From: a virus
Lineage: Duplodnaviria; Heunggongvirae; Uroviricota; Caudoviricetes
Length of the DNA stretch: 64,000 bases
IMG/VR virus record: IMGVR_UViG_3300031227_011131
Direction: 5' to 3' (one strand)
Made by a program: the position numbers and the translations under genes. Under the pieces are notes generated by a model. That model was not told the DNA's origin. It ran no database searches and worked only from the letters and a program-made list of their open reading frames with translations. Shown piece by piece: positions 5,134-32,071 of this stretch. Every line of letters begins with the position of its first letter. The stretch's first letter is position 1.

Positions 5134-5532
5134 ATGGAAATGGGCGAAAGCAAAGAGCCTGAATTGTCTTTTGATGAAATGGTAGCGGTAATTCGCAAAG
5201 ATGATGCTCGTTATGACAAAGCGGCTTATGGTTTTTTGGCGGCTGCTATGAACCTCTGTCATAAAGGACAAGGTGAGCGTCAGCATTTGACAGCTAGGGA
5301 AGTCTTGGATGGAATGTGCGAGTCTGCCAAAATAGATTTTGGAATGATGGCTTGCTGCGTGTTTGAGCAGTGGGGCATTCACAGCACAGATGATGTTGGC
5401 GAGATGGTTTTCAGTTTTGTAGATAGGGGTTTTTGTGGAAAGACTGAAGACGACAAGCGAGAAGATTTCCACAATGCTTTTGACCTTAAGGCGGAATTGC
5501 AAGATTATGAAATAGAGATGGAATCAGAATGA
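5134..5532 (+). CDS. hypothetical protein; C-terminal FCGKTEDDKREDF motif
   Basis: 132 aa ORF. The motif recurs downstream at 6055-6100. Confidence 0.4.
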   Translation: MEMGESKEPELSFDEMVAVIRKDDARYDKAAYGFLAAAMNLCHKGQGERQHLTAREVLDGMCESAKIDFGMMACCVFEQWGIHSTDDVGEMVFSFVDRGFCGKTEDDKREDFHNAFDLKAELQDYEIEMESE

Positions 5533-5966
5533 ACGTCAAGTGGCTTGTTGAAGATACGGCATTTGACGAAGACTTGATTCCAATGATTGATGAAATCAAG
5601 CGGCACGATATAGAGCCGCATCGTATGATTGTGGTAGCTGAACCACAGAATATAGAATGTGAATGGCGTTTCGTGATAGTCGAGAAACAAGTCATAGCGG
5701 GCTGCCCATATAAGAGTGCAGGATTGAAAGAAACACAGGAAGATAATGAACAAGCTAAACAGTTTGCACAGCAAGTAGCTCAAGCTGGATACAATCCTGA
5801 TGTAACTTGGACATTGGATGTGTGTAAGATACGTTCCGGCGCATTTAGGCTATTGGAAATTAACAGTTTTAGTTGTTCTGGATTGTATGAGTGTGAGATA
5901 GAACCTATTGTTAGGGAAGTATCGCGAGTTGCGTGGAAGGAGTGGATTTTCGATGTCGATTGCTAA
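5529..5966 (+). CDS. ATP-grasp-like domain protein (C-terminal half)
   Basis: WRFVIVEKQVIAG ... FRLLEINSFSCSGLYE resembles the ATP-grasp C-domain of RimK-type ligases. Confidence 0.35.
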   Translation: MNVKWLVEDTAFDEDLIPMIDEIKRHDIEPHRMIVVAEPQNIECEWRFVIVEKQVIAGCPYKSAGLKETQEDNEQAKQFAQQVAQAGYNPDVTWTLDVCKIRSGAFRLLEINSFSCSGLYECEIEPIVREVSRVAWKEWIFDVDC

Positions 5967-8542: not shown

Positions 8543-9658
8543 ATGATGTTGGCGATACAACGATATTTACGAGCAAACTCACTACAAGCCGCAGTTGACG
8601 AGTGGGCTTTCCGTGTACAAGAGCATGGCAGTCTTGTACAATTGAACTACTCTAGCGATTCCTCTTTAGGCGTTCAAGAGATTGAGGAATGTCGTGGCCT
8701 GATACTGTCCAAGCCTGATTGGGATGTCGTAGCGTATCCGTTCTATCGCTTCTACAATGAAGGCGAATCGTATGCGGCATGTCCCGACTTATCATCGTCT
8801 GTACTGCTTGAGAAGCTTGACGGCTCATTGATAACTCTGTATTGGAATCCAGAGTTGAAGGATTGGTGTGTTGCCACTCGCGGTACAATTCTGGCTGACG
8901 CAACATCAAACTGGAAGAAGTTATCGTTTCAAAGTTTGTTTTGGCAAGCAGTTCGGAAGTATTTGGATGTCGATTTTGAGCGACTTCCGAAGACTGTCAA
9001 CTTGATGTTTGAGCTTATTGGCCCGGACAACCGCGTGTTGACTTGGTATCCAGAAGCCGACTTGCGATTGTTGGCGGCCCGTGACTTGACAACTTTGGAA
9101 GAATTGGACGATGAGGAACTGGACGGATTGTCTGGACTATTAGGCATTCCGCGTCCGAAGGTATTCTCATTTTTTTCTCGTGAGGATGTGTTGGCATTAC
9201 TTGACACATTGGACGAAAAGGATGAAGGTTTTGTTCTGGTTGACTATGACCACAAGAAAGATGGCAACTTTCTGCGCATCAAAGTAAAGAACAAGCGTTA
9301 CTTGGAATTGGCTTATCGTCTACATGCGGGGCAATTGAGCATACTGACTCCAAAGAACATCATTCGTATGATTCGTTCTGACGAAGTAGATGAGATGCTT
9401 GCCTATTTCCCCGAGTTCGGCTCGGACGTTGATTCGGTACGTCAAAAGCTGGGAGACTTGGCGGCTCAAATAGACCGAGATTTTGAGTCTGTCAAGCATT
9501 TGGGAATTGACCGTAAGGAATTAGCGAAGATTGTTGGCAAGATGGTTTGTCCAAAAGCCATATTCTGGCTATTGGATGGCAAGCTACAATCAGGTCGTCA
9601 ATTTTTGATGACTTGCTTTGAGAAAACTTTGTTTCGATTGCTGGGATTTTTCAGCTAA
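8543..9658 (+). CDS. ATP-dependent RNA ligase, T4 Rnl1-like
   Basis: Nucleotidyltransferase motif I EKLDGSL (KxDGSL as in T4 Rnl1). 371 aa, consistent with Rnl1 size. Confidence 0.6.
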   Translation: MMLAIQRYLRANSLQAAVDEWAFRVQEHGSLVQLNYSSDSSLGVQEIEECRGLILSKPDWDVVAYPFYRFYNEGESYAACPDLSSSVLLEKLDGSLITLYWNPELKDWCVATRGTILADATSNWKKLSFQSLFWQAVRKYLDVDFERLPKTVNLMFELIGPDNRVLTWYPEADLRLLAARDLTTLEELDDEELDGLSGLLGIPRPKVFSFFSREDVLALLDTLDEKDEGFVLVDYDHKKDGNFLRIKVKNKRYLELAYRLHAGQLSILTPKNIIRMIRSDEVDEMLAYFPEFGSDVDSVRQKLGDLAAQIDRDFESVKHLGIDRKELAKIVGKMVCPKAIFWLLDGKLQSGRQFLMTCFEKTLFRLLGFFS

Positions 9659-11914: not shown

Positions 11915-11920
11915 TTTAAT

Positions 11921-12014
11921 GGATAGGTGGCCGAGTTTGGTCTAAGGCTCTGGTTTCGAAAATCAGTAGGCGGTGTCAAACACTGTCTCGTGGGTTCAAA
12001 TCCCACCCTATCCG
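11921..12014 (+). tRNA. tRNA-Ser (anticodon CGA), class II with a long variable arm
   Basis: Acceptor GGATAGG/CCTATCC, anticodon arm CTGGT-TTCGAAA-ATCAG, T-arm GTGGG-TTCAAAT-CCCAC. Confidence 0.65.
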
Positions 12015-12076
12015 TCAATGGTGGAGTTGTCTAAGAGGCTATTTGGTTTAGCAAGCAATTCAAAAAAGGGAACACA

Positions 12077-12517
12077 ATGAAGCCGAAGTTAGTCAAGGGC
12101 AACATTTTTGACACAGGATGTCAGTGGATTGGTCATGGCGTTAATTGTGTTGGCGTTATGGGTGCTGGTATTGCATTACAGGTTCGCCGCAGGTATCCGT
12201 ATTCTTTCACGGTTTACCAACAGGTCATTCATGACACTGGTTTAGTTCCGGGGCAGAACATTTATGTTGTAGAGAATCCTCATTCGATATGTCACATGGC
12301 GACACAACCTAGGCCTGGGAGATTTGCTTGTCTTGAACTTGTTGAGATGTGTATTAGTGAGTTTATTCAAGAATACAACGAAGTGGGTGTTTCACTTGCT
12401 TTGCCGCGTATTGGTTGTGGCATAGGCGGCTTGAATTGGGAAGATGTATCACAGTTATTGGAAAAGCTGTTTACGCCCACTGCTATTGAGGTTGAGTTTT
12501 GGACGTATATGTTGTAA
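12077..12517 (+). CDS. macro-domain protein (ADP-ribose binding or hydrolase)
   Basis: GNIFD ... HGVNCVGVMGAGIALQV is the macro-domain signature. Confidence 0.7.
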   Translation: MKPKLVKGNIFDTGCQWIGHGVNCVGVMGAGIALQVRRRYPYSFTVYQQVIHDTGLVPGQNIYVVENPHSICHMATQPRPGRFACLELVEMCISEFIQEYNEVGVSLALPRIGCGIGGLNWEDVSQLLEKLFTPTAIEVEFWTYML

Positions 12518-12568: not shown

Positions 12569-13792
12569 ATGCAGGTTATCAATGACAATGGAAATTTGAT
12601 TAAGGCTTGGATTGACGGTGTTTCCGTTGAAGATGGGGCTGTTGCGCAGTTGAAGAAGTGTGCTCAGATGCCTTTCATTTTCAAGCATGTAGCTGCAATG
12701 CCAGATGCTCATGTGGGAATGGGCGCTTGTATTGGTAGCGTAATTCCTACTATCGGTGCTGTTATGCCTTCGGCTGTTGGCGTTGACATTGGGTGTGGAA
12801 TGGCTGCGGTAAGAACTACGCTTACCGAGTCTGACATTCCAGAGGCAATCAGACCCGATGTACGTTTTGCTATCGAAAATGCAATTCCAGCGGGCCGTTC
12901 GCATAACGGTGGCAAGGGCGACATTGGAGCCTGGGATAAGTTGCCAACTGTTGTAGAAGCCATTTGGCTTGACGAGCTTGCAGAGGACTACGACAAGATT
13001 ACTGAGAAGCACAGGGGAGCTAAGGGATACAACGATGTAAACCAACTTGGTACGCTTGGGACGGGCAATCACTTCATTGAGATTTGTTTGGACAAGGACA
13101 ACCGAGTATGGTTCATGTTGCATTCTGGTTCTCGTGGTTGCGGAAACAGAATTGGCAGCTATTTCATCAAGTTTGCAAAAGAGCTTTGCAATAAGTGGTT
13201 TATCAATTTGCCTGATTCTGATTTGGCTTATTTTCCACAGCGCACTGAAGAATTTTCAGATTACATGTTTGCGGTTGGCTGGGCGCAGAAGTTTGCCAGG
13301 TTGAATCGTGATTTAATGATGCAGTCTCTTGTTGACGCTATCAGGGGAGTGACATCTGTTCCTGAGTTTGAGTTTGAAGGCGATGTAGTCGATTGTCATC
13401 ACAACTATGTTGCTTTTGAGAATCATTTTGGCAAGAATATATTAGTAACTCGCAAAGGTGCAATTCGTGCTCGCAAGGATGAGCTTGCTATTATTCCTGG
13501 TAGTATGGGCACGCGCTCGTACATTGTGCGAGGTCTTGGCAATAGGGACAGTTTTTGCAGTGCTTCGCATGGTGCTGGTCGTTGTATGTCACGAACCCGG
13601 GCGCGCAAAACGATCACGGTAGATCAGCATGTTGCGGCTACAAAGGGTGTTGAGTGCGTTAAGGATAAGACTGTATTGGACGAATCACCTTTGGCGTATA
13701 AGGATATTGACAAGGTAATTGAAGCTGAACGGGATTTGGTAGAGCCTGTTCATACCTTACGTCAGATAATTTGCGTCAAAGGAATTGGATAA
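12569..13792 (+). CDS. rtcB: RtcB RNA ligase (3'-phosphate/5'-hydroxyl RNA ligase)
   Basis: 407 aa. Metal-ligand blocks AMPDAHVGMG, GCGMAAV, GTGNHFIE, HSGSRG and HNY are all present in RtcB order. Confidence 0.85.
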   Translation: MQVINDNGNLIKAWIDGVSVEDGAVAQLKKCAQMPFIFKHVAAMPDAHVGMGACIGSVIPTIGAVMPSAVGVDIGCGMAAVRTTLTESDIPEAIRPDVRFAIENAIPAGRSHNGGKGDIGAWDKLPTVVEAIWLDELAEDYDKITEKHRGAKGYNDVNQLGTLGTGNHFIEICLDKDNRVWFMLHSGSRGCGNRIGSYFIKFAKELCNKWFINLPDSDLAYFPQRTEEFSDYMFAVGWAQKFARLNRDLMMQSLVDAIRGVTSVPEFEFEGDVVDCHHNYVAFENHFGKNILVTRKGAIRARKDELAIIPGSMGTRSYIVRGLGNRDSFCSASHGAGRCMSRTRARKTITVDQHVAATKGVECVKDKTVLDESPLAYKDIDKVIEAERDLVEPVHTLRQIICVKGIG

Positions 13793-14052: not shown

Positions 14053-14823
14053 ATGAAAATTGATAGGAAGGAGTTTGAGAAAGCGTGGAATGGCAATTTG
14101 GCTGTGAGAGAGATACGTAATGCGTTTGGCCTATCGGAAAGGCAAGTTAGGAAGTTCAGGGATGAATACAACTTAAAAAAGCGAAAGAGAGGCGGAGTAC
14201 GGGTTAGCGAGTATCCAAAGACGAGTGAATCTGCCTATTTGCTTGGAGTGGCTTTAGGGGATGGAGATTTAGGAATCGTAGGAAGAACGATTAGGTTGAG
14301 GCTATTTTGTGACATAAAATTTCCATGCTTGATAGACAAGTGGCGTAATACATGTAATGCGGTTTTGGGATGTAATTCAAGTGTTATATCGTGGGGGAAG
14401 AATTGCAAAGCTGTGATGGCATATTCTAAGAAGTTACAAGAGTTTCCATGGAAACCTCGAAAAGGAAGAAAGTGGGAACAAAATGTTCGTATTCCAGATT
14501 GGGTCAAGGATGGTGGGTTCCTGATTGATTGTTTGGTTGGCCTCTTTGAAGCTGATGGTTGCATTTATACTCAACGGGTGAAAGTTGGAAACAGAGTCTA
14601 TGAATACGAAAGGGTGAGTTTTAGCAATTCTGCAGAGTTGCTGATTCGGGATGTGATTGATTTTCTGTTGGATAATGGCATATCACATACAGTTGTTGAG
14701 CGTCCCGTAGGTGGTAAAACGATGATAAATGGAAAACCAGTAGTAAGTAGAACAATCAATTATTACATACAGATTATAGATAGGGATGGGTTTCTTGATT
14801 TAGTGCCGTTTAGTAAGACTTAA
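14053..14823 (+). CDS. LAGLIDADG homing endonuclease (two-motif)
   Basis: Motifs LLGVALGDGDLGIV and LVGLFEADGCIYT. The start is 17 nt after the tRNA-Leu end. Confidence 0.75.
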   Translation: MKIDRKEFEKAWNGNLAVREIRNAFGLSERQVRKFRDEYNLKKRKRGGVRVSEYPKTSESAYLLGVALGDGDLGIVGRTIRLRLFCDIKFPCLIDKWRNTCNAVLGCNSSVISWGKNCKAVMAYSKKLQEFPWKPRKGRKWEQNVRIPDWVKDGGFLIDCLVGLFEADGCIYTQRVKVGNRVYEYERVSFSNSAELLIRDVIDFLLDNGISHTVVERPVGGKTMINGKPVVSRTINYYIQIIDRDGFLDLVPFSKT

Positions 14824-14896
14824 AATCCGTTGGCCCTTTTTGGCTGTGTGGGTTCGAGTCCCACCACCCGCATCAGTGAGGAGGAATCATGAAAAT
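14817..14896 (+). repeat. diverged duplicate of the tRNA-Leu 3' half (from the anticodon loop) plus the downstream RBS and ATGAAAAT
   Basis: GACTTAAAATCCGTTGG ... GTGGGTTCGAGTCCCACCACCCGCATCAGTGAGGAGGAATCATGAAAAT parallels 13982-14060. Confidence 0.65.
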
Positions 14897-15152
14897 GGAT
14901 TTGAATGAGTTGCTGACTGAAGCAAAGAGCAAACTCGGCAAGCAAGAGATGGCCAAGCTTGACCACTTGCTTGAAGACATAGAGAAGGTAGGCGCGAGCG
15001 TTGTCAACTTGGACGATGGCTTGCATTTGAAAGTCAATTGGTGTTTGTATTCTTTGCCTGAGTTTATGGAGGCGTATCGCAGGCATGACAAATGGCCTGA
15101 TCTTTGGATGGAACGCATGCAAAAAATAGGACAATCAGTGCCTATTCATTGA
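14889..15152 (+). CDS. hypothetical protein
   Basis: 87 aa. Its start region is duplicated at the start of the homing-endonuclease ORF. Confidence 0.4.
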   Translation: MKMDLNELLTEAKSKLGKQEMAKLDHLLEDIEKVGASVVNLDDGLHLKVNWCLYSLPEFMEAYRRHDKWPDLWMERMQKIGQSVPIH

Positions 15153-15343
15153 GTGGAGATGTTATGGGTTATCGGAGGTGCAAGTGTGGGGCGTGTATGG
15201 AACATCTTTTGGTAGAGGGTACAAACGAAGAGTGTGTTTTTTGGTGTCCAGAATGTGGCAGGGCGTTGTGTATGTTACAAGAGGAAACAGCTTGGCACGA
15301 GCCAAGTTGTATAAAGCAAGAGGACGAATTGGGTAAAAAATAG
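15104..15343 (+). CDS. zinc-ribbon protein (CxxC ... CPECG)
   Basis: 79 aa with two CxxC pairs. Confidence 0.35.
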   Translation: MDGTHAKNRTISAYSLSGDVMGYRRCKCGACMEHLLVEGTNEECVFWCPECGRALCMLQEETAWHEPSCIKQEDELGKK

Positions 15344-15409
15344 TATTGAGATTCAGGTGTTTGATTACCACCATTGAGAAATGGTAGGACAATATGAAAA
15401 GGAGAAAAG

Positions 15410-15697
15410 ATGAGCGATACTAAGGAGAAATCTGGCAGTTTGGAAACGTATGAAACGTATGATACGAATGATTTTTTGACGGCCAATTTCTTACTGGCCA
15501 AACATGCCAGGCTTGTTGGAAGTCGCTTTGAGGGTCGTTGGCTTGTGTTCATATTTGCAAATAAAGCGGAATGTGAGAATTTGATAAATGATCTGAATTA
15601 TGGCGATGACAATGTATCCGCGTCGGTTTTCTTTGATGCTGGTAAGCGTTTGAAGAAAATCATACATTCCCAGGATAGAGGTTATGGCAAAAGATGA
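15410..15697 (+). CDS. hypothetical protein
   Basis: 95 aa ORF. Confidence 0.35.
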   Translation: MSDTKEKSGSLETYETYDTNDFLTANFLLAKHARLVGSRFEGRWLVFIFANKAECENLINDLNYGDDNVSASVFFDAGKRLKKIIHSQDRGYGKR

Positions 15698-16035
15698 GAG
15701 TTATCATAGCTGGTTCAAGAGAGGTGAAATCTTACGATGTTGTTGAAGAAGCCATAAAAGAATCAGGTTTTGCCATATCACAAGTCGTAAGTGGGATGGC
15801 AAGCGGTGTGGATGCTCTTGGTGTATTGTGGGCAAAAGAGAATGATGTTTTATTGGCTGAGTATCCAGCCGATTGGAAAAGATATGGTCGTGCTGCCGGG
15901 ATGATTCGTAACAAGCAGATGTCGGAGAATGCAGATGCTCTTGTTGCAATATGGGATGGTAAGTCACACGGCACTCAGAATATGATAGGTACTGCAAAAG
16001 CTCAAGGATTGATGGTCTATGTGAAACAAGTCTGA
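15694..16035 (+). CDS. SLOG/DprA-like Rossmann-fold protein (DUF2493-like)
   Basis: IIAGSR ... GMASGVDA ... AIWDGKSHGT resembles the DprA/LOG Rossmann core. Confidence 0.4.
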   Translation: MRVIIAGSREVKSYDVVEEAIKESGFAISQVVSGMASGVDALGVLWAKENDVLLAEYPADWKRYGRAAGMIRNKQMSENADALVAIWDGKSHGTQNMIGTAKAQGLMVYVKQV

Positions 16036-16058
16036 AAAGTAGAAACTTTTTGGGCATT

Positions 16059-16070
16059 CGGTGATATTAA
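16059..16070 (+). promoter_or_regulatory. -10-like element CGGTGATATTAAG upstream of the phosphoesterase gene
   Basis: Member of the motif family, about 40 nt before the likely ATG at 16114. Confidence 0.35.
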
Positions 16071-16095
16071 GATAGGTTACGAATGAAAGTTTATC

Positions 16096-16716
16096 TTGAC
16101 AAGGAATAGGACGATGTTTTTCGTTGGCGATGTGCATGGGCGATTTGAGGAATACAAGCGAATCATAGTTGATTTGCCTCAAATCATTCAGCTTGGCGAC
16201 ATGGGATTGGGGTTTGGCAAAGATAAACAGTATCTCGACAATCCCTCTTATCGCTTTTTAAGAGGCAATCACGACAGTCCGGCTATCTGTCGGAAGCAGT
16301 TCAGCTATCTTGGGGATTGGGGCTATTTGAAGGATGAGGGCGTATTTTACGTTAGTGGTGCGTATTCAGTTGACAAGGCGATGCGTACCATTGATTTAGA
16401 TTGGTGGCCTGAAGAGCAGCTTGACTATCAGACATTTTGTCGGGCAATTGAGTCGTACAAGCTTCTGAAGCCAGAGATTGTAGTTTCGCATGACTGTCCG
16501 TTTGACATTCTGCCATACGTGATGGGCAATGCTCGGAGATGTAAGCGGAATTCGACGGTAATGGCTTTGCAGCAGATGTTTGATGCTCATAGGCCTAATT
16601 TGTGGATATTTGCCCATCACCACAAGTCAAGGAAGTTTTCTGTTGATGGAACGTTGTTCATCTGTGTGGGTATCTTAGGTGTATACGATTCAGAGATAAA
16701 TCAGTTCGTAACGTGA
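16096..16716 (+). CDS. calcineurin-like metallophosphoesterase
   Basis: GDVHG, GDMG and RGNHD motifs. The true start is probably the ATG at about 16114. Confidence 0.7.
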   Translation: MTRNRTMFFVGDVHGRFEEYKRIIVDLPQIIQLGDMGLGFGKDKQYLDNPSYRFLRGNHDSPAICRKQFSYLGDWGYLKDEGVFYVSGAYSVDKAMRTIDLDWWPEEQLDYQTFCRAIESYKLLKPEIVVSHDCPFDILPYVMGNARRCKRNSTVMALQQMFDAHRPNLWIFAHHHKSRKFSVDGTLFICVGILGVYDSEINQFVT

Positions 16717-16737
16717 AAACTGCATTGTAATTCATGA

Positions 16738-17817
16738 TTGGTTATAGTTGGCTTGCAAGTATGGGGTGTAGTTATGAGAAATCGCAAGATGTTCCCGACT
16801 GAATTGTCTTATTTTGTAATTGGTCGTGGGGATTATTCGGACAAGTATTTTGTACGTACCCGTGACATTTTGCTTGCCGAAAACAGACATTCTAATGTGT
16901 TGATGCAAGTTTTTGGTCGGCGTGAGGGTATTGTATGCGGTATTGACGAGGCTATTGATGTTTTGCGGTGTTGTTGTTTGAATGATTCGGGCAAGCAATT
17001 AGCAATAAAGGCACTTCGGGATGGGGACTCTATTGAGAATAAAGAAGTTGTCATGACCATTGAAGGCGACTTTTCTACTTTTGCTCATCTTGAGACGGTT
17101 TATTTAGGCATTCTTGCTCGGAGTACATCCGTTGCCACAAATGTTAAAGAGGTTGTGGATGCGGCATGCGGGTTGCCGGTTATGTTTTTTCCGGCTCGAT
17201 TTGATCATTGGCGCATTCAACAGGGTGATGGTTATGCGGCTCATATTGCGGGGGCGGCATCGGCGTCAACAGATGCAAATGCAGAATGGTATGGTGGCGA
17301 AGGAATGGGAACTATCCCTCATGCTTTGATTGCTTCTTACGGCGGTAATACGGTAGAGGCTTGCAAGGCATTTGACCGCAACATGCCGAAAGAAATTAAG
17401 CGTATCGCTCTTGTGGATTTTGAGAACAATTGTGTAAAAACATCACTTGAGGTTGCAGTGGCTCTTGACAAGCGGCTATATGCTGTTAGACTTGACACAT
17501 CGGGCAACATGGTTGATGTTTCTGTCAAGTCAGGTGAGACAGGTGTATGCCAGGAGCTTGTGTGCAATGTTAGGAAAGCTCTTGACGATAACAAGTTTCC
17601 GTGGGTCAAGATTATCGTTAGCGGAGGATTCAATGTAGAGAAAGTAACAGAGTTTCTTAATGCGAAAGTTCCGGTTGATGGTTTTGGTGTAGGTTCGACG
17701 TTTTACAAGAAGAAGACCGATTTCACGGCTGATATTGTGTTGCTTGATGGTAATTCTTGCGCAAAGGTAGGTCGTGGGATTTGGGATCATTCACGGTTGG
17801 AGTTGGTTGAGACATGA
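16738..17817 (+). CDS. type II phosphoribosyltransferase of the nicotinate/nicotinamide PRTase family (NadV/PncB-like)
   Basis: GMGTIPHAL, RLDTSGN and VSGGFN correspond to conserved type II PRTase blocks. Confidence 0.55.
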   Translation: MVIVGLQVWGVVMRNRKMFPTELSYFVIGRGDYSDKYFVRTRDILLAENRHSNVLMQVFGRREGIVCGIDEAIDVLRCCCLNDSGKQLAIKALRDGDSIENKEVVMTIEGDFSTFAHLETVYLGILARSTSVATNVKEVVDAACGLPVMFFPARFDHWRIQQGDGYAAHIAGAASASTDANAEWYGGEGMGTIPHALIASYGGNTVEACKAFDRNMPKEIKRIALVDFENNCVKTSLEVAVALDKRLYAVRLDTSGNMVDVSVKSGETGVCQELVCNVRKALDDNKFPWVKIIVSGGFNVEKVTEFLNAKVPVDGFGVGSTFYKKKTDFTADIVLLDGNSCAKVGRGIWDHSRLELVET

Positions 17818-17889
17818 GAACGGGCAAGGAAAATAAAGAAAAGTTCACAAATTCTCCATCTGAAGGTGATATATGGATGGAGGAAATAG

Positions 17890-18042
17890 AAATGACAAAA
17901 AGAAGAAGAGCAAAGAAGGTCGGGAGGCCCGCAATTTTGGGCGTTCGGAAGTCTGTCCCTCCGAAGGGCGGGCCGATGCGGGACAAGAAGGCTTATAAGA
18001 GAAAGGATAAGAGGAACGACAGGCTAATGGATAGAGAGTATT
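17890..18042 (+). CDS. small, highly basic protein (51 aa)
   Basis: MTKRRRAKKVGRP...KRKDKRNDR. RBS GGAGG is 5 nt upstream. Preceded by GGTGATATATG. Confidence 0.3.
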
Positions 18043-18110
18043 GATGAAACGCATATCAATGGTCAAATAATCGTTTTTATGGCTTATCGTATGAGGAAGC
18101 CAATTTAGAT

Positions 18111-18323
18111 TTGGATGTGCATTGTGGTTTGATTTGGAGCAACAAGGAGTGTTATTTGCGACCTGCCTATTGGGATTATTCTCATTCGGGAGATTTGAGT
18201 GATATTAGTTCTTATTGCATTTCGGGATTGTCGGGCTGTGTGTTTCACAATGTAGAGCAGCTTGTTGGTCATATCAAGCATGCAATAAAGGAGGCACACC
18301 AGCGACAAATGCAAGCATATTGA
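18111..18323 (+). CDS. hypothetical Cys/His-rich small protein
   Basis: 70 aa ORF. Confidence 0.25.
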   Translation: MDVHCGLIWSNKECYLRPAYWDYSHSGDLSDISSYCISGLSGCVFHNVEQLVGHIKHAIKEAHQRQMQAY

Positions 18324-18383
18324 CAAAAATATCTCTGTTATGGGCTATAATAGGCACGTATTGTTTTTCAGAGAGGAATTGGC

Positions 18384-18719
18384 ATGGTCAAGTTTATGAC
18401 GGATAGACTGGCTTATCGCATTTACAAGGTTCTGATAGATTACTGTGGAGTGGATGATGGCGAGCAGAGCATTGTATCATTTGTCAGTTCTTTGGTGGGC
18501 GGTGTTCAACGATACAAGTTGGGCGGATTGTGTGGTGGTTTGGGAGTGTTGTATAACAGTGGAACACAATTGCGCATTGCTGTTGAGGGTGTAGACCGGA
18601 CGCCGGAGATAGCGGACATGGTTGAGGTAACAAGTCATCGAATCACTTGTGTGTATAAGGAAGAAATGAAGAAGTTCTCAAAGCGAGCAAAGATATTGCA
18701 ACAAAATGCCGTGGACTAA
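18384..18719 (+). CDS. hypothetical protein
   Basis: 111 aa ORF. Confidence 0.3.
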   Translation: MVKFMTDRLAYRIYKVLIDYCGVDDGEQSIVSFVSSLVGGVQRYKLGGLCGGLGVLYNSGTQLRIAVEGVDRTPEIADMVEVTSHRITCVYKEEMKKFSKRAKILQQNAVD

Positions 18720-18825
18720 GAAAACACGACATGGTTCAGAATGCCCGCTCGGTAAGTTCAAGACAGACATATCGGTGCCCTGTTGATATGATTTAGGACG
18801 ATTACGTTGAGGAGAATTTTGGATA

Positions 18826-19836
18826 ATGAGCGTTGATTTAACGAACATTAGTCAAGAGGTAATTGGCAAGGTTAGGGCTTCTATTGTCGCTGTCTATCAG
18901 GTGGTTCCTGTCAAATGGGACGAATCCAATTCAACTCTTACTGTTGCGGTGGGACCAGCCACTACAGACATTGATGATTTGAAATTCGTTTTGAATTGTA
19001 ATGTGGAGCTTGTTTTGGCTGTAAAGGCCGACTTAGAAGCAGCTATTGCCAAGTACTATGGATTTGGGTTAAAGATGGAGACACACACAGAACACATTGC
19101 GGATTGGATTGCTGGCTACGTTGAAGACGTGGGGGCTAAAGGTGTCGTAATCGGTTTGAGTGGTGGTGTTGATTCGTCTGTCGTGGCAGCATTGAGTGTG
19201 AATGCACTTGGAGCGAACAGAGTCGCTGGCTTGTTTATGCCCTGCGATTCAAGTTATCAGGACGCAACGGACGCGAGACATTTGGCAAAATGGCTTGGTG
19301 TTGGCTTCAATACCGTTTATTTGCGGAGCACGTACAATTCAGTGATGGTTAATTTGTTTGTCGGTCAAAGTCAAATTGCTCAGGCCAATGTCAAATCACG
19401 TCTGCGCATGATATCGTTGTATGCGTATGCGGGCCAGCTTGACTATTTAGTTGTTGGCACAACAAACAAGTCAGAAATGGCAATAGGTTATTTTACAAAG
19501 TGGGGAGACGGTGGTGTTGACATAGAACCAATCGCTTCATACTACAAGACGGACATTTACAAAATGGCTGAGGTGCTTGGTATTGCTGAGGCATTTCCAA
19601 GCATTGTAACGAAGCCACCTTCTGCGGGTTTATGGGATGGTCAAACGGATGAAGGCGAAATTGGCGTAACATACAAAGTGCTTGACAAGTATTTGAAGTG
19701 TTGTGAAGACTCTGTTTGTTCAGTTTCTTTGGCTGAAGAAATAGGTCGAGACATGTTATCCAAGATACAGGGTTTGATTTCTCGGACGGCACACAAACGC
19801 AAGATGCCACCTGTGTGCGACCGTCTTACGGACTAA
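18826..19836 (+). CDS. nadE: NH3-dependent NAD+ synthetase
   Basis: PP-loop GLSGGVDSSVVAAL. Length and downstream blocks match NadE. Confidence 0.8.
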   Translation: MSVDLTNISQEVIGKVRASIVAVYQVVPVKWDESNSTLTVAVGPATTDIDDLKFVLNCNVELVLAVKADLEAAIAKYYGFGLKMETHTEHIADWIAGYVEDVGAKGVVIGLSGGVDSSVVAALSVNALGANRVAGLFMPCDSSYQDATDARHLAKWLGVGFNTVYLRSTYNSVMVNLFVGQSQIAQANVKSRLRMISLYAYAGQLDYLVVGTTNKSEMAIGYFTKWGDGGVDIEPIASYYKTDIYKMAEVLGIAEAFPSIVTKPPSAGLWDGQTDEGEIGVTYKVLDKYLKCCEDSVCSVSLAEEIGRDMLSKIQGLISRTAHKRKMPPVCDRLTD

Positions 19837-20036
19837 AGGGCAGGCAATATGAAAGTCGCGTGGCAATGTGGAATTTGTAGGCTGGATGATTCAGGACAGT
19901 TGGAAAGACTCTGGTAGTTTGGAGTAATTTCATTACAAGGTTCTCCTCGCAAGGAAACCCCGCCCTTTGTGGGTGGGGTAGTTGACATTGATTCCAGTAG
20001 AACAGTGGCACAATACACATCAAGGAGGATATTAAA

Positions 20037-20561
20037 ATGGAAAAACGCACGTCTTGCTATTTAGAAGTCAAGGCTATGGCTCTTGATAAAGCTTTGGACT
20101 TTTTTCTTGCTGACATAGGCAGCACTATCAAAGCAGGGGCTATTGAGCGGCGTATGGTTTTCTTAGCCCAGATTGAGTTTTGGGATTGGGAGATGAGTGA
20201 GTTGATTTACTCATTTGTGTCTTTTGCTGAGCGTGCTGAGTTATGGGATGATTGGGCAAAGCTTAAGGATCATTTACTCAAGATGGGAGTCTGTCTAAGT
20301 GTTCGCAATACAAAGAATACAGATTGGCACAAGAAGTGGGAGAAATGGCAGGAACAAAGGGGATACAGTAGAAAGATTACGAAGGTAGAACCGCCTTTCC
20401 CATTGCTTGAGAAGATTATCGAGAAGTGGAATATGATACTTGATGATTGTGAGAAATCCATCATTCGGCGCGGTTCACAGGAGGCTGTTGAAAAATGGGG
20501 TGTTCAAATAATAGGCTTGGACAAGTATATAAAGAAGATTCCCTCAACTGAAGCTACTTGA
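20037..20561 (+). CDS. hypothetical protein
   Basis: 174 aa ORF. Confidence 0.35.
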   Translation: MEKRTSCYLEVKAMALDKALDFFLADIGSTIKAGAIERRMVFLAQIEFWDWEMSELIYSFVSFAERAELWDDWAKLKDHLLKMGVCLSVRNTKNTDWHKKWEKWQEQRGYSRKITKVEPPFPLLEKIIEKWNMILDDCEKSIIRRGSQEAVEKWGVQIIGLDKYIKKIPSTEAT

Positions 20562-20592
20562 TTATGGTTTTTGCGATATACAAGGGTGAATT

Positions 20593-21395
20593 TTGAAGCG
20601 TCCTTTTTTTACTCGTTTGGGCGGCAAAAGTCGTTTACGCAAAACGATTCTACGTGCGTTGCCATCTGAGTGTGGGCTTTATTGTGAGCCATTTGTAGGT
20701 GCTGGCTGGGTATTTATGGCTTATGAAGGTGCTGTAAAGTATGTGATTTCCGACATGGATTCACAGGTAACTGACATGTGGAATGTTCTCAGAAGTGTTC
20801 CTATTGAACGATTTAAGGCCGCTGTGTTTGATTTCAAGCGTTCTGATAGGTTTTATCGCAACAAGGCAAATACAAATCAGGGCAATGGAAGAGCAGAGAA
20901 GAATTACTCTATTTGTATCGCTATTTACAGTATTATGGAGTTTTAGGAGATTACGAAACTCCTATATCTCGCGATTCTGATTTATCGAAGAAAGAGGTTT
21001 AGCCTCTTGAACATTATCATCCTGTTCATGAGGAATTGAATAGTCGAGATTTGACAATCATAAATGGCGATTATCAAGATGTTATTGACGCCTATGATAC
21101 TACACGGACGGTATTCTATTTTGACCCGCCGTGGATAGACAACATCTGTCAGGATAGATATGGTGGTTGTCACATTAGTTATTCTGATATTGTGCAATGG
21201 ATGAAAAGGTTGAAAGGTTTTGTTTTGATGACTTGCAATCCTGCATCGCTTGCGGGATTAGATATGTCGAATCTATTTTGGGCTAAGGTCAATCAGAAGT
21301 ACGGCTCATGCAATTTCGTAAAATGTTCTGGTGGCAGGCGAGTATTAGCTAGTAAAATAGTGATGGTGTCCAATAGAGAATTGGGCACATTTTGA
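20593..21395 (+). pseudogene. dam: Dam-family N6-adenine DNA methyltransferase, disrupted: N-terminal ORF 20593-20946 and C-terminal ORF 21036-21395 lie in different frames
   Basis: The N-terminal part has RLGGKSRL and motif I EPFVGAGWVF. The C-terminal part has the DPPW (DPPY) motif IV. Three frames are used between about 20880 and 21040. Confidence 0.5.
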
Positions 21396-23418: not shown

Positions 23419-23434
23419 AGAATTGGATAGGTGG

Positions 23435-23518
23435 CTGAGTTTGGTCTAAGGCTCTGGTTTCGAAAATCAGTAGGCGGTGTCAAACACTGTCTCGTGGGTT
23501 CAAATCCCACCCTATCCG
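23435..23518 (+). tRNA. tRNA-Ser (anticodon CGA), second copy
   Basis: Identical to 11921-12014 except for 1 nt (GCCGAG vs GCTGAG). The duplication extends a few nt on each side. Confidence 0.65.
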
Positions 23519-23822
23519 CCAATGGAACAATGACGAATCCTGAATTAAGATAATGCCCCGCTCTTGGTATTTACATCAGAACCGCTTAGAATTCTGCCAG
23601 ACGCACATTCTCGCCTTACTAAATGTCTTGTCTTATTGACGAGTTTTGCAAACTTGTCTATTTGTACGTCGAATTTTGTCACAATTTTCTTATAGTTGGC
23701 CTTATGGGGTAGGGTTGGCCCGATTCACGTGAGAGTTGGGTCTGGATATTTAGCTATATTTTTTTGATATTTGCATCTTAGTGAGGGGATAGCAATGCGC
23801 ATTAGATTTTGAAAAGGGGATT

Positions 23823-28202: not shown

Positions 28203-28469
28203 ATGAATGATAAACTGAAGCCATACTTTGTAGACATTTATCGTAAAAGTCCTTGCAATTTGATAACAGTCGTGGCTGGTTGTAATACAATGTCTTTTGT
28301 AGAGGATTTGAAGCAAGATGGGCTTGATAATGATGAAATAGAAGATTTTTTCATAGAACTTAGCAAGGTATGTCTTGATAGAGATGTAACTTTGCCGATT
28401 AGTGGTTATATGAATATGGTTAGTTTTGCTGCTGGTAATGGATTGCTTGAAAGTTTCAAATCAAAATGA
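28203..28469 (+). CDS. hypothetical protein
   Basis: 88 aa. Overlaps the next start. Confidence 0.35.
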   Translation: MNDKLKPYFVDIYRKSPCNLITVVAGCNTMSFVEDLKQDGLDNDEIEDFFIELSKVCLDRDVTLPISGYMNMVSFAAGNGLLESFKSK

Positions 28470-29446
28470 AAAAAACTGCTGAATTCATCAGCCCATTTAC
28501 TGGTGTTTTACCTTATGGCAAGACTCATGCAATGACTCCTCGTGAGCTTGAGCGTGCTATTAGGCAAAGTCTTGCTGCTGAAGAAGAGGCGGTTCATTTG
28601 TATGAGGCGATTGCAGATGCTTCAGCAAATGAGTTTGTAAGTAAGGTGATGCAGGATGTAGCTGATGAGGAGAAGGTTCACGCTGGCGAGTTTCAACGGC
28701 TTTTAGACATACTTGCCCCACAAGAGGAGAAGTTTATCTCCGAGGGCAAAGAAGAGGTTGACGAAATGGCTGAAAAAAAGGGAGTATTTGGAATGGATGA
28801 GAAAAGAGTAGCGAGTGAACTAGTCAAGTTGGCTAAACAAATAGTATCAAATCAACCTACAAACAGGCGAGCAAATGTTAGACAAAGGACAGCAATTGAT
28901 TTGAAACGTGATTTGGATACCAATGAAGAAGGCATTGCGGATATGATTTATGGGTGTTTGAAAGATATTGATAAGGATTTTCTTTCTGTTGAGGTTAAGG
29001 CAGAGGAAACAGATAGAGGTTGGCGTTGGGATGATTGGCAGGTTGACGAGTATGGGGTAGAATTTTCATGTGATAGTGTGAAAACTTTCAGACTTGATAA
29101 AGTGATGCGTTTGTTTTCGCAAGAAAGTTTTGAAATAACTCATGATGGCGAGTTGATACCTGTTGATGAATTACTCAACAAAAAAACAATTGCTCAATTC
29201 AACAAGATATTGAGCAAGCCACGTGAGGCTGATGAGGACGGTTTTTATATTTGTGATGATGATGTGGAAGATTGTACTGGTAAAATTGACAGCGATGCCA
29301 TATATGTTATTTGGTCAGCTAAGATTTCTGGCAATAAATTCGTTCTCAATGTTAAACCTGTTCCTTCTGAATGGAGGGAACTAGAAGAACAGTTGTTGGA
29401 GTGGGCAACAGAGGTTGAAATTGAACGTTGTGAACCATCTTTGTGA
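28466..29446 (+). CDS. ferritin-like (ExxH x2) domain protein with an internal KRVASELVKLAKQIV module
   Basis: EEEAVHLYEA and EEKVHAGEF resemble the di-iron ExxH pairs of rubrerythrin/ferritin-like folds. Confidence 0.4.
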   Translation: MKKTAEFISPFTGVLPYGKTHAMTPRELERAIRQSLAAEEEAVHLYEAIADASANEFVSKVMQDVADEEKVHAGEFQRLLDILAPQEEKFISEGKEEVDEMAEKKGVFGMDEKRVASELVKLAKQIVSNQPTNRRANVRQRTAIDLKRDLDTNEEGIADMIYGCLKDIDKDFLSVEVKAEETDRGWRWDDWQVDEYGVEFSCDSVKTFRLDKVMRLFSQESFEITHDGELIPVDELLNKKTIAQFNKILSKPREADEDGFYICDDDVEDCTGKIDSDAIYVIWSAKISGNKFVLNVKPVPSEWRELEEQLLEWATEVEIERCEPSL

Positions 29447-29484: not shown

Positions 29485-29889
29485 GTGAACAGGAAAAGAG
29501 TAGCAAGAGAGCTTTTGAAGTTAGCACGTGAACTACAGGCAATGCCAATGTTGGTTCATGAAACGGTTGTAAAGCAAAGATTGCCAATTGCTGACAAGTT
29601 ACGTGCTGCTTGCGGTATTCAGGAAAGAATCAGGCCCACATTTAGTCGTTATATGACATTCAAGAATGAGCGAAGCAACAAGTTTCATTATTTTGCTGTT
29701 TATAAGAATCCTGATGATCCAGAAGAGTACATTGGCGGCAATGCCTGGGGTCGTATTGGTTACATGAAGACTGGCAGAGCAATGGAATTAGCTCGTGGGG
29801 ATAGGGCTTCTGTGATAAAGGCTGTTGAAAGCAAGATAAAGAAGAAGTTGTCAAAGGGTTATGAGTTTGATACATATTCTGCAAGGTAG
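29485..29889 (+). CDS. WGR-domain protein with N-terminal NRKRVARELLKLAREL module
   Basis: FHYFAVYKNPDDPEEYIGGNAWGRIGY is the WGR signature. Confidence 0.55.
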   Translation: MNRKRVARELLKLARELQAMPMLVHETVVKQRLPIADKLRAACGIQERIRPTFSRYMTFKNERSNKFHYFAVYKNPDDPEEYIGGNAWGRIGYMKTGRAMELARGDRASVIKAVESKIKKKLSKGYEFDTYSAR

Positions 29890-31975: not shown

Positions 31976-32071
31976 TATTACTATTGTTTTCTGTCCTTGT
32001 TATGGTGTGAAACCTGTTGTATAATATGTTGGTTACGACAGTTTTATGCCATAACAAGGACGGAGAGAAAA

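What the first reader, a model, noticed from the sequence alone, without database searches (positions are those of the whole stretch)
16738..19836. Phage-encoded NAD+ salvage pair (type II PRTase plus NadE), beside macro and WGR domain proteins: an ADP-ribose/NAD theme
A nicotinate/nicotinamide phosphoribosyltransferase-like enzyme and an NH3-dependent NAD+ synthetase sit 1 kb apart. Elsewhere the window holds a macro domain (12077) and a WGR domain protein (29485). From established knowledge, phages use NAD+ reconstitution pathways to survive NAD-depleting defence systems, and macro domains reverse ADP-ribosylation. The combination suggests an NAD/ADP-ribose counter-defence layer. An adenylyltransferase (NadD/NMNAT) step is not obvious and may be host-supplied or novel.
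Basis: partly seen in the sequence, partly recalled or inferred. Interest (0 to 1): 0.6.

Follow-up and report, generated by a model that had tools for sequence, protein, structure and literature searches.

The report
Phage NAD salvage gene pair
A 222-kb jumbo phage carries the first and last enzymes of the nicotinic-acid route to NAD+ but no visible middle enzyme, a kind of phage gene set already described, here with an odd extra domain on the last enzyme.

Summary
ORF 16774/16789-17817 is a short, archaeal-type nicotinate phosphoribosyltransferase (NaPRT). ORF 18826-19836 is an ammonia-dependent NAD+ synthetase (NadE). They lie 1 kb apart in a 221,945-bp jumbo-phage contig. The macro domain (12077) and WGR protein (29485) are also real.

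The PRTase is not a quinolinate enzyme. It passes an NCBIfam NaPRT cut-off and keeps the NaPRT active-site residues. Its closest bacterial homologues sit directly after a pncA-like gene.

No adenylyltransferase, nicotinamidase or PRPP synthetase was found in the 80 kb I could read. The likeliest mechanism is therefore a boost to the host Preiss-Handler pathway, with host NadD bridging the two phage steps.

Jumbo phages with pncB-nadD-nadE clusters are already published, so this is a new member of a known kind. A counter-defence role is plausible but untested, and depends more on the host than NARP1-3.

The wider "ADP-ribose theme" is only partly supported:
- The macro domain is DarG/TARG1-type and sits among RNA-repair genes.
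- WGR has no shown NAD link.

The new detail is that NadE carries an N-terminal GSPII/MshEN-type alpha/beta subdomain without the c-di-GMP motif. No other NadE examined has this fusion.

The parts
16774..17817 (+). Short (archaeal-type) nicotinate phosphoribosyltransferase, 347 aa. Alternative starts: TTG 16738 (359 aa) or ATG 16789 (342 aa, as called in public assemblies).
   Evidence: Pfam QRPTase_N/C. NCBIfam PRK08662 scores 247.2 against cut-off 243; PRK07188 scores 346.4 against cut-off 378. PDB 2i14 E=9e-38 and 1ytd E=9e-14. 55-64% identity to the 19 aligned bacterial NaPRTs, sharing all columns invariant among them. R137/H178/R234 align with E. faecalis R163/H205/R262. RBS GGGGTG lies before ATG 16774.
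18826..19836 (+). NH3-dependent NAD+ synthetase (NadE), 336 aa, two domains.
   Evidence: Pfam NAD_synthase E=4.9e-73. NF010587 scores 263.5 against cut-off 255; TIGR00552 scores 246.8 against cut-off 63.65. PDB 2e18 E=1.2e-55. PP-loop SGGVDS at aa 112-117 is invariant in A4. No glutaminase domain. SD GAGGAG lies upstream of the ATG. The same 336-aa product occurs in three independent assemblies.
18832..19065 (+). N-terminal domain of NadE (aa 3-80). It is the alpha/beta subdomain of the GSPII/MshEN (T2SSE_N) domain of pilus and secretion ATPases. It lacks the helical c-di-GMP-binding half.
   Evidence: Pfam MshEN E=6.7e-8. 115 relatives in 1.8e9 representatives; all ten hits scanned are MshEN-domain proteins, two with T2SSE ATPase hits. 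Alignment A3 shows the phage domain begins after the helical motif region. AF2 pLDDT 83.8. The 25 best Foldseek PDB hits are all PilF-GSPII, PilB-N, MshE, EpsE-N1 or XpsE-N.
19090..19809 (+). Catalytic NAD_synthase domain of NadE (aa 89-328).
   Evidence: AF2 pLDDT is mostly above 90 in this region.
17814..18044 (+). Basic 76-aa ORF overlapping the NaPRT stop codon by 4 nt. Function unknown.
   Evidence: Called in all assemblies. No Pfam or PHROG hit.
18111..18323 (+). About 70-aa ORF, function unknown, conserved in the related phage.
   Evidence: tblastn of L010_7260_7655 gives 32% identity over window 18081-18305, E=5e-5.
18384..18719 (+). 111-aa ORF of unknown function between the two enzymes.
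   Evidence: Called in all assemblies. No family hit.
18706..18786 (+). 26-aa remnant ORF matching the first 23 aa of a 104-aa gene of phage L010. It marks remodelling just upstream of the NadE fusion.
   Evidence: tblastn 48% identity, E=7e-5. Reading of the sequence.
15694..16035 (+). YAcAr-family SLOG protein. It is a syntenic neighbour; a functional link to the pair is not shown.
   Evidence: Pfam YAcAr E=4.9e-13. Syntenic in L010 at 55% identity. Homologues in four other viral contigs have no NAD genes nearby.
16114..16716 (+). Calcineurin-like metallophosphoesterase directly upstream of NaPRT. It is a syntenic neighbour with unknown substrate.
   Evidence: Pfam Metallophos E=7e-7. PHROG 1649 E=3e-21. 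55% identical homologue at the same position in L010.
12077..12517 (+). DarG/TARG1-type macro domain protein.
   Evidence: Pfam Macro. NCBIfam antitoxin_DarG E=1e-24, macro part only. PDB 5m3i and 5m31 (DarG), 4j5r (OARD1).
29485..29889 (+). WGR-domain protein.
   Evidence: Pfam WGR E=5.9e-8. No PDB, PHROG or NCBIfam hit.

Best explanation
The phage encodes two enzymes of the Preiss-Handler route and uses them to raise flux to NAD+ in the infected cell.

1. The short-type NaPRT makes nicotinate mononucleotide from nicotinate and PRPP. This is the entry step.
2. A host NaMN adenylyltransferase (NadD or NadM) makes deamido-NAD. This step is inferred.
3. The phage NH3-dependent NadE amidates deamido-NAD to NAD+.

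If the precursor is nicotinamide released by an NADase defence system, a host nicotinamidase (PncA) is needed as well.

Enzyme identities are shown by sequence. Host supply of the middle step, and the benefit to the phage, are inferred. That benefit could be general NAD+ maintenance in a long jumbo-phage infection, or survival of NAD+-depleting defence.

The N-terminal GSPII/MshEN-like subdomain of NadE is most likely a protein-protein docking or oligomerisation module. It is unlikely to be a c-di-GMP sensor.
For: **NaPRT identity**
- HMM hits and solved homologues 2i14 and 1ytd.
- All columns invariant among the 19 aligned bacterial homologues are kept in the phage protein.
- R137, H178 and R234 align with E. 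faecalis R163, H205 and R262. These are listed as active-site residues in PMC4442680; the mapping is.
- Bacterial homologues P0105 and P0018 (57-60% identity) lie immediately downstream of a 171-173-aa isochorismatase-family gene, the classic pncA-pncB arrangement.

**NadE identity**
-. There is no glutaminase domain.
- The short archaeal subfamily enzyme from M. jannaschii is a strict NaAD-using NAD synthetase with no NMN synthetase activity (PMC3376133).

**Both genes maintained**
- Both are kept in a diverged related phage contig, L010 (NaPRT 64%, NadE 47% identity).
- Both have the GC content of the phage.

**Missing steps**
- No NMNAT, NadD, PncA, PRPP synthetase, PnuC or NadR Pfam hit in about 80 kb of the contig. 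No HxGH-type motif.

**Precedent**
- Jumbo phages with Preiss-Handler genes are described in PMC11662467.
- pncB overexpression alone raises NAD in E. coli, as cited in PMC6128845.
- NAD+ reconstitution defeats NADase defences (bioRxiv 10.1101/2024.02.11.579819; PMC13464706).
Against: - No enzyme assay exists for this subfamily of NaPRT. The PRK07188 score (346) is below that model's cut-off (378).
- About 140 kb of the 222-kb contig could not be read, so a phage nadD or pncA may exist.
- NADase defences release nicotinamide, which this route cannot use without PncA. As a counter-defence it depends on two host enzymes.
- No published experiment shows that an NaPRT+NadE pair counters defence.
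- The function of the N-terminal domain is a guess from its fold.
Confidence: 0.65

Rival explanations
1. The pathway is complete on the phage. A nadD/NMNAT gene, and perhaps pncA, lies in the 140 kb of the contig outside what I could read. That would make this an ordinary 'NAD-jumbo phage' with a dispersed Preiss-Handler set.
For: Published jumbo phages carry pncB, nadD and nadE (PMC11662467). Only contig positions about 95k-176k of 221,945 bp were inspected.
Against: In published cases the genes are clustered. Here nothing lies within 20 kb upstream or 55 kb downstream. The related fragment L010 also lacks it within its 14.8 kb.
Confidence: 0.2
2. The steps run in Francisella-type order. The phage NadE amidates NaMN to NMN (NMN synthetase), and a host NadM/NadR-type NMN adenylyltransferase finishes the job.
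For: The second-best solved homologue is F. tularensis NadE, 3fiu, E=1.4e-40. Both belong to the short NadE subfamily. This would fit hosts with NadM instead of NadD (PMC3376133).
Against: The best matches are archaeal and Omnitrophota-type NadE (2e18 E=1.2e-55; up to 51% identity). The characterised archaeal member has no NMN synthetase activity. NMN synthetase is known from very few lineages.
Confidence: 0.1
3. The genes form an integrated ADP-ribose/NAD counter-defence island. In this view macro, SLOG, metallophosphoesterase, NaPRT, NadE and WGR act together: they degrade ADP-ribose signals or modifications and rebuild NAD+.
For: - Macro, SLOG, MPE, NaPRT and NadE lie within 8 kb.
- SLOG-MPE-NaPRT-NadE order is kept in L010, which also has a NUDIX gene 4.4 kb downstream.
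- YAcAr SLOG domains are predicted to use NAD+ (PMC7824862).
- Macro phosphatases extend NARP1 (bioRxiv 10.64898/2026.01.28.702374).
Against: - Synteny with L010 extends to unrelated genes such as HNH (72% identity), so it reflects shared ancestry.
- Macro and RtcB are absent from the L010 fragment.
- SLOG homologues in four other viral contigs sit by ThyX, RecA and a 5'-3' exonuclease, with no NAD genes.
- The macro is DarG/TARG1-type, not Poa1p-type, and is flanked by RNA-repair genes.
- WGR is 9.6 kb away with no NAD link.
Confidence: 0.12
4. The pair is a NARP1-like shortcut. The PRTase joins nicotinate to ADPR-pyrophosphate, giving deamido-NAD directly, and NadE amidates it. No adenylyltransferase would then be needed.
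For: It would explain the missing NadD. Namat of NARP1 is also a type II PRTase relative (PMC12774641 abstract).
Against: No PRPS-like Adps gene appears in 80 kb. The enzyme is 55-64% identical to chromosomal bacterial NaPRTs in pncA-pncB-like pairs and shares all columns invariant among them.
Confidence: 0.03

Closest known systems
'NAD-jumbo phages' with Preiss-Handler genes (pncB-nadD-nadE cluster, e.g. Kuafu_71; Microbiome 2024, PMC11662467)
   Same: A jumbo phage over 200 kb that encodes NaPRT and NadE for NAD+ synthesis from nicotinate. The proposed role is also the same: supporting the phage's NAD+ needs and counter-defence.
   Different: - No nadD was found in the 80 kb inspected.
- The PRTase is the short archaeal-type family rather than classic long PncB.
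- The two genes are separated by three or four unknown ORFs.
- NadE carries an extra N-terminal domain.
NARP2 (phage NAMPT + NMNAT; Osterman et al., bioRxiv 10.1101/2024.02.11.579819) and the KVP40 NadV/NatV system
   Same: A type II PRTase starts phage-encoded NAD+ rebuilding from a pyridine base and PRPP.
   Different: - NARP2 uses nicotinamide directly and brings its own adenylyltransferase.
- Here the base is nicotinate, an amidation step (NadE) is needed, and the adenylyltransferase is missing.
- NARP2 is experimentally validated; this pair is not.
Bacterial pncA-pncB salvage pair plus NadD/NadE (Preiss-Handler pathway)
   Same: The enzyme chemistry is the same. The phage NaPRT is 57-60% identical to two bacterial homologues that sit next to a pncA-like gene.
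   Different: The phage kept only the entry and exit enzymes, and lacks pncA and nadD in the region seen.
Phage NadE auxiliary genes (Pelagibacter phage HTVC008M, cyanophages S-SSM7 and P-TIM68, Bacillus phage G, 735-kb LR756501)
   Same: Single-domain NH3-type NadE encoded by large phages, 29-37% identical to this one among the records annotated as NadE.
   Different: Among the records annotated as NadE, none aligns before about residue 49, so the N-terminal domain is not covered (two unannotated fragments reach residue 55). A tblastn search with the NaPRT found no match in those records or any other of the 50,697.
MshEN/GSPII N-terminal domains of PilB, PilF, MshE and GspE ATPases
   Same: The fold and sequence family of NadE residues 3-80.
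   Different: Only the alpha/beta subdomain is present. The helical half with the c-di-GMP-binding motifs is absent. It is fused to a metabolic enzyme rather than a secretion ATPase.

Membership tests
Nicotinate phosphoribosyltransferase (type II PRTase, short/archaeal type) | Two-domain type II PRTase architecture (N-terminal open sandwich plus alpha/beta barrel) | tested here: met
   Pfam QRPTase_N aa 35-129 and QRPTase_C aa 132-323. Aligns over 317 residues with PDB 2i14.
Nicotinate phosphoribosyltransferase (type II PRTase, short/archaeal type) | Score above a curated equivalog cut-off for NaPRT and not for NadC | tested here: inconclusive
   PRK08662 scores 247.2 against cut-off 243 (passes). 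PRK07188 scores 346.4 against cut-off 378 (just fails). nadC TIGR00078 scores 43.7 against cut-off 198 (fails clearly).
Nicotinate phosphoribosyltransferase (type II PRTase, short/archaeal type) | Conserved active-site Arg/His/Arg (E. faecalis R163, H205, R262) | tested here: met
   Phage R137, H178 and R234 occupy these columns in the profile alignment to 2f7f. The residue list is from PMC4442680. All three are invariant in A1.
Nicotinate phosphoribosyltransferase (type II PRTase, short/archaeal type) | Functional partnership with nicotinamidase PncA (genomic linkage) | tested here: met
   Met for bacterial homologues P0105 and P0018, where an isochorismatase-family gene lies directly upstream. 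No such gene lies near the phage copy.
Nicotinate phosphoribosyltransferase (type II PRTase, short/archaeal type) | Catalyses nicotinate + PRPP -> NaMN and discriminates against nicotinamide and quinolinate | not testable with these tools
   Needs an enzyme assay.
NH3-dependent NAD+ synthetase (NadE) | Full-length NAD_synthase domain scoring above curated cut-offs | tested here: met
   Pfam profile positions 3-242 of 242, E=4.9e-73. NF010587 scores 263.5 against cut-off 255; TIGR00552 scores 246.8 against cut-off 63.65.
NH3-dependent NAD+ synthetase (NadE) | PP-loop ATP pyrophosphatase motif SGGxDS | tested here: met
   S112-G113-G114-V115-D116-S117, invariant in alignment A4.
NH3-dependent NAD+ synthetase (NadE) | No nitrilase-like glutaminase domain (distinguishes the NH3-type from the Gln-type) | tested here: met
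   The only other domain is the 80-aa MshEN-like N-domain. The closest homologues are 240-280-aa single-domain enzymes.
NH3-dependent NAD+ synthetase (NadE) | Prefers NaAD over NaMN | not testable with these tools
   Inferred only from the closer match to the archaeal type and the M. jannaschii data (PMC3376133).
Complete phage Preiss-Handler pathway ('NAD-jumbo phage', PMC11662467) | Phage genome over 200 kb encoding pncB, nadD and nadE | tested here: inconclusive
   The contig is 221,945 bp with pncB-like and nadE genes present. nadD was not found in about 80 kb.
NARP1 (Adps + Namat) | PRPS-like ADPR pyrophosphokinase next to a NAMPT-like transferase | tested here: not met
   No Pribosyl_synth or Pribosyltran_N hit in the neighbourhood. 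The PRTase profiles as NaPRT.
NARP2 (NAMPT + NMNAT) | Nicotinamide PRTase plus HIGH-motif adenylyltransferase | tested here: not met
   No CTP_transf_like hit and no HxGH motif. No NAMPT model among the hits.
NARP3 (PnuC + NadR) | NR transporter plus bifunctional NadR-like enzyme (PMC13464706) | tested here: not met
   No PnuC or NadR-type Pfam hit in the 80 kb read.
MshEN c-di-GMP receptor domain | GSPII/MshEN fold | tested here: met
   Met for the alpha/beta subdomain only: Pfam E=6.7e-8; Foldseek TM(query) 0.6-0.75 to PilF, PilB, MshE and EpsE N-domains.
MshEN c-di-GMP receptor domain | N-terminal helical region carrying the tandem c-di-GMP-binding motifs | tested here: not met
   The phage protein starts at the position where the alpha/beta subdomain begins. 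Homologues have about 60-80 more residues upstream (alignment A3). TM normalised to the target is only about 0.45.
DarG/TARG1-type macro domain (ADP-ribosyl glycohydrolase) | Sequence similarity to DarG and TARG1 macrodomains | tested here: met
   NCBIfam antitoxin_DarG E=1e-24, covering profile positions 3-144 of 338 and scoring below the whole-protein cut-off. PDB 5m3i E=5e-17, 5m31, 4j5r. Activity was not tested.

The most novel reading that the evidence does not exclude
The pair may be a fourth, so far untested NAD+ reconstitution strategy of phages: a minimal 'entry plus exit' Preiss-Handler module that hijacks host PncA and NadD. In this reading the unique GSPII/MshEN-like N-domain docks NadE onto a host or phage partner, for example a PilM/GspL/PilZ-like protein or the other pathway enzymes. 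That would channel or localise NAD+ synthesis. Alternatively, the pair bypasses NadD through non-canonical substrate use.
Probability: 0.1. Interest if true: 0.65.

Novelty: new member of a known kind. Interest (0 to 1): 0.35.

Why it matters
NAD+ is a central battleground between phages and bacterial immunity. Three reconstitution pathways (NARP1-3) are validated experimentally. Preiss-Handler genes in jumbo phages are known only from sequence.

This locus offers a compact test case. If two phage enzymes flanking a host step can rescue NAD+ under NADase attack, the catalogue of counter-defence routes widens. It would also show that partial pathways suffice.

The NadE fusion to a pilus-ATPase-type docking domain has no other example I could find. 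It may show how phages localise or regulate a metabolic enzyme.

If the genes simply top up NAD+ during a long infection, this is an ordinary auxiliary metabolic gene pair.

Tried and rejected
- **Close phage relatives.** megablast of 16000-20000 against 50,697 phage records found no match. tblastn of the NaPRT against the same set found no match. An IMG/VR scan with the protein found none. With a profile it found only two 33-34% relatives of 439 aa (L008, L009), without NadE nearby. These scans are pattern-limited, so absence is not proven.
- **Hidden adenylyltransferase.** I used the precomputed Pfam lists for about 80 kb and a motif search for GxFxPxH/TxGH. Both were negative. The rest of the contig could not be walked. 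One look-up failed because the ORF start was guessed wrongly.
- **SLOG/MPE linkage to NAD genes.** MPE has no close IMG/VR relative. Four SLOG loci show DNA-metabolism neighbours, not NAD genes. I rejected linkage as general evidence.
- **MshEN domain as c-di-GMP sensor.** Rejected because the motif-bearing half is absent.
- **MshEN domain split off or duplicated elsewhere.** An HMM built from A3 hits only NadE in the window and flanks, and nothing in L010.
- **Riboswitch or other RNA element.** Rfam finds only the nine tRNAs.
- **Promoter and terminator scan of 14800-20700.** Counts did not exceed shuffled controls.
- **Recent host-gene capture.** GC and GC3 match the phage background.
- **Full-length AF2 model.** The N-domain had low confidence without alignment depth, so nothing can be said about domain packing.
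- **Sorci 2009.** The paper on NMN synthetase determinants is not held.

Full report
**Setting.** The window is a one-strand, tRNA-rich stretch of a jumbo phage.
- 76 of the 88 non-overlapping ORFs kept by a simple greedy caller are on the + strand.
- There are nine tRNA genes.
- The large terminase contains an intein.
- Exact protein look-ups place the window at about positions 103k-167k of ENA metagenome contig ERZ27316532:k141_455309, which is 221,945 bp long.
- Shorter copies occur in a JGI sample and a second ENA sample.
- A 27-nt indel in gene 33150-34268 shows that the window is a slightly different assembly of the same phage.

**Observation.**
- *PRTase ORF* (stop at 17817). It hits Pfam QRPTase_N and QRPTase_C. 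It also hits NCBIfam nicotinate PRTase equivalogs: PRK07188 at E=1.6e-103 and PRK08662 at E=2.2e-73.
- *Its start.* TTG 16738 gives the longest ORF. Gene callers use ATG 16789. ATG 16774 has a GGGGTG ribosome-binding site and fits the N-termini of homologues better.
- *NadE* (18826-19836). It covers the whole NAD_synthase profile (E=4.9e-73) and passes two curated NadE cut-offs.
- *Macro* (12077-12517) and *WGR* (29485-29889) are confirmed.

**Is the PRTase a nicotinate enzyme?** The Pfam names are fold names, so they do not decide this. Four lines of evidence point to NaPRT.
1. The nadC model scores 43.7 against a cut-off of 198. PRK08662 passes its cut-off (247.2 against 243). PRK07188 narrowly fails (346 against 378).
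2. The solved relatives are the short archaeal-type enzymes: 2i14 from P. furiosus (E=9e-38) and the characterised T. acidophilum NaPRT 1ytd. The long E. faecalis NaPRT follows, and quinolinate PRTases appear only at E of about 1e-4 or weaker.
3. Phage R137, H178 and R234 occupy the columns of E. faecalis R163, H205 and R262. These are active-site residues listed in PMC4442680. The phage protein also keeps every column that is invariant among 19 aligned bacterial homologues of 55-64% identity.
4. Two of those bacterial homologues (P0105 and P0018, on contigs of 380 kb and 74 kb) lie directly downstream of a 171-173-aa isochorismatase-family gene. This is the classic pncA-pncB arrangement.

**NadE.**
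- The PP-loop SGGVDS is present.
- There is no glutaminase domain.
- The best relatives are 240-280-aa single-domain enzymes of Asgard archaea, Omnitrophota and Planctomycetota, at up to 51% identity.
- The best solved relative is the P. horikoshii NH3-dependent enzyme 2e18 (E=1.2e-55). Second is F. tularensis 3fiu, the NMN synthetase.
- The characterised archaeal member of this subfamily (M. jannaschii) uses NaAD and has no NMN synthetase activity (PMC3376133). NaAD amidation is therefore the default reading, with the Francisella-type order as a minority rival.

**An unexpected feature.** NadE has about 85 extra N-terminal residues.
- *Family.*
  - They hit Pfam MshEN (E=6.7e-8) and PilB N-termini in the PDB.
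  - A full HMMER scan of 1.84 billion representatives found 115 relatives.
  - All ten of those that I scanned have MshEN domains, often in tandem, and two also have T2SSE ATPase hits.
- *Which part of the domain.* Alignment shows that the phage domain matches only the C-terminal alpha/beta subdomain. The preceding helical region, which carries the c-di-GMP-binding motifs, is absent.
- *Structure.*
  - An AlphaFold2 model of the domain has mean pLDDT 83.8.
  - Its 25 best PDB matches are all PilF-GSPII, PilB-N (in complex with PilZ), MshE, EpsE-N1 (in complex with EpsL) or XpsE-N.
  - TM-scores are about 0.7 normalised to the query and about 0.45 normalised to the target, as expected for half a domain.
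- *Uniqueness.* None of the 119 other top NadE homologues has this domain. The NadE of the related phage L010 lacks it.
- *Not an artefact.* The fusion is present in three independent assemblies. It has a GAGGAG Shine-Dalgarno sequence before its ATG.
- *Local history.* Just upstream lies a 26-codon remnant of a gene that is intact in L010. This indicates local remodelling.
- *Function.* By analogy with EpsE-N1 and PilB-N, the domain is most likely a protein-docking or oligomerisation module. This is inference only. The full-length model gave no confident domain packing.

**The missing steps.** Precomputed Pfam lists for all called genes between contig positions about 95k and 176k show none of the following: CTP_transf_like, isochorismatase, PRPP synthetase, PnuC or NadR-type domains. 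No ORF contains the NMNAT signature motif. The other 140 kb could not be reached with the tools. Host NadD is therefore the most economical bridge, but a distant phage nadD remains possible (I put it at about 0.2).

**Neighbourhood.**
- *Synteny with L010.*
  - A diverged related phage fragment (L010, 14.8 kb) has the same order: small ORFs, YAcAr/SLOG, metallophosphoesterase, NaPRT, small ORFs, NadE, then an HNH gene.
  - Identities are SLOG 55%, metallophosphoesterase 55%, NaPRT 64%, NadE 47% and HNH 72%.
  - This shows that both NAD genes are maintained across divergence.
  - Collinearity includes unrelated genes, however, so it does not prove a functional module.
- *SLOG elsewhere.* SLOG homologues in four other viral contigs sit beside ThyX, RecA and a 5'-3' exonuclease, with no NAD genes.
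- *Macro.* It is DarG/TARG1-type, which suits reversal of ADP-ribosylation. It sits among RNA-repair genes: a T4 Rnl1-like ligase, RtcB, tRNAs and a PNK-like kinase at the window start. It is absent from L010.
- *WGR.* It is 9.6 kb downstream. In jumbo phages it is treated as a DNA-binding transcription-factor domain (PMC7824862).
- *Overall.* The "ADP-ribose/NAD theme" is thus a loose co-occurrence in an accessory region, not a demonstrated system.

**Comparison with the literature.**
- NARP1 is Adps plus Namat. NARP2 is NAMPT plus NMNAT. NARP3 is PnuC plus NadR (PMC13464706). All three are experimentally validated, and this locus meets the defining features of none of them.
- Preiss-Handler gene sets (pncB, nadD, nadE) in jumbo phages were reported from metagenomes in 2024 (PMC11662467).
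- NadE alone is annotated in cyanophages, a pelagiphage and several huge phages.
- The short-type NaPRT seems rare in phages. A tblastn search of 50,697 GenBank phage records found no match, and IMG/VR yielded two distant relatives. One of those lies next to an Apyc1-like anti-Pycsar gene and an NAD-dependent ligase.

**Verdict.** This is a correct and well-placed observation of a known kind of phage auxiliary or counter-defence gene set. The mechanism I favour (0.65) is phage NaPRT, then host NadD, then phage NadE, with host PncA needed if nicotinamide is the source. The counter-defence purpose is plausible but untested, and this route is less self-sufficient than NARP1-3. The one new element is the GSPII/MshEN-subdomain fusion on NadE. 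Overall interest is moderate to low.

Noticed in passing
window 10-429, 8543-9658, 12569-13792, plus tRNA genes at 435, 3413, 3838, 9772, 11419, 11920, 13952, 22048 and 23425: An RNA-repair gene set lies among nine tRNA genes: an AAA_33 PNK-like kinase, a T4 Rnl1-type RNA ligase and RtcB. It looks like a tRNA-repair answer to anticodon nucleases, and may be the real context of the macro domain.
   Followed up: partly
window 49779-52688 and 56720-61069; L006 18517-20802: The large terminase and a 1449-aa protein carry intein and homing-endonuclease domains (Intein_splicing, LAGLIDADG_3, Hom_end). A third intein-bearing 761-aa gene lies just beyond the window. Free-standing LAGLIDADG genes sit at 14053-14823 and 31997-33157.
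   Followed up: no
window 20593-20946 and 21036-21395: Two adjacent ORFs lie just downstream of NadE: a 117-aa ORF with a MethyltransfD12 (Dam-like) hit, then a 119-aa ORF with no family hit. This may be a split or decayed methyltransferase gene. It is absent at this position in L010.
   Followed up: no
L008 3529-12061 (IMGVR_UViG_3300014204_000115, 180 kb): A 439-aa distant relative of the NaPRT (33% identity) sits directly upstream of an Apyc1-like anti-Pycsar metallo-beta-lactamase. Nearby are a weak isochorismatase-like gene and an NAD-dependent DNA ligase. This could be a separate NAD/counter-defence cluster in another huge phage.
   Followed up: partly
window 33150-34268: A 27-nt (9-codon) insertion relative to the ENA contig copy of the same gene shows strain-level variation between assemblies of this phage.
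   Followed up: no
window 45548-46696: An IS605 OrfB/TnpB-like (Cas12f-like TNB) gene lies inside the phage. L010 also carries a TnpB-like gene with a resolvase next to it.
   Followed up: no
window 52757-54709: A 650-aa protein has a eukaryotic/poxvirus-type topoisomerase IB domain (Pfam Topoisom_I).
   Followed up: no
window 5529-5966 and 28466-29446: An R2K-clade ATP-grasp protein (R2K_2/R2K_3), and a 326-aa rubrerythrin-domain protein just upstream of the WGR gene.
   Followed up: no
L010 9309-9824 and 13603-13992: The related phage has a nucleoside 2-deoxyribosyltransferase-like gene (weak hit) where this window has the unknown 174-aa ORF 20037-20561. It also has a NUDIX hydrolase 4.4 kb downstream of NadE. 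Neither has a detectable homologue in the window.
   Followed up: partly
window 11920-12016 and 23425-23521: There are two copies of a long-arm tRNA-Ser with anticodon CGA.
   Followed up: no
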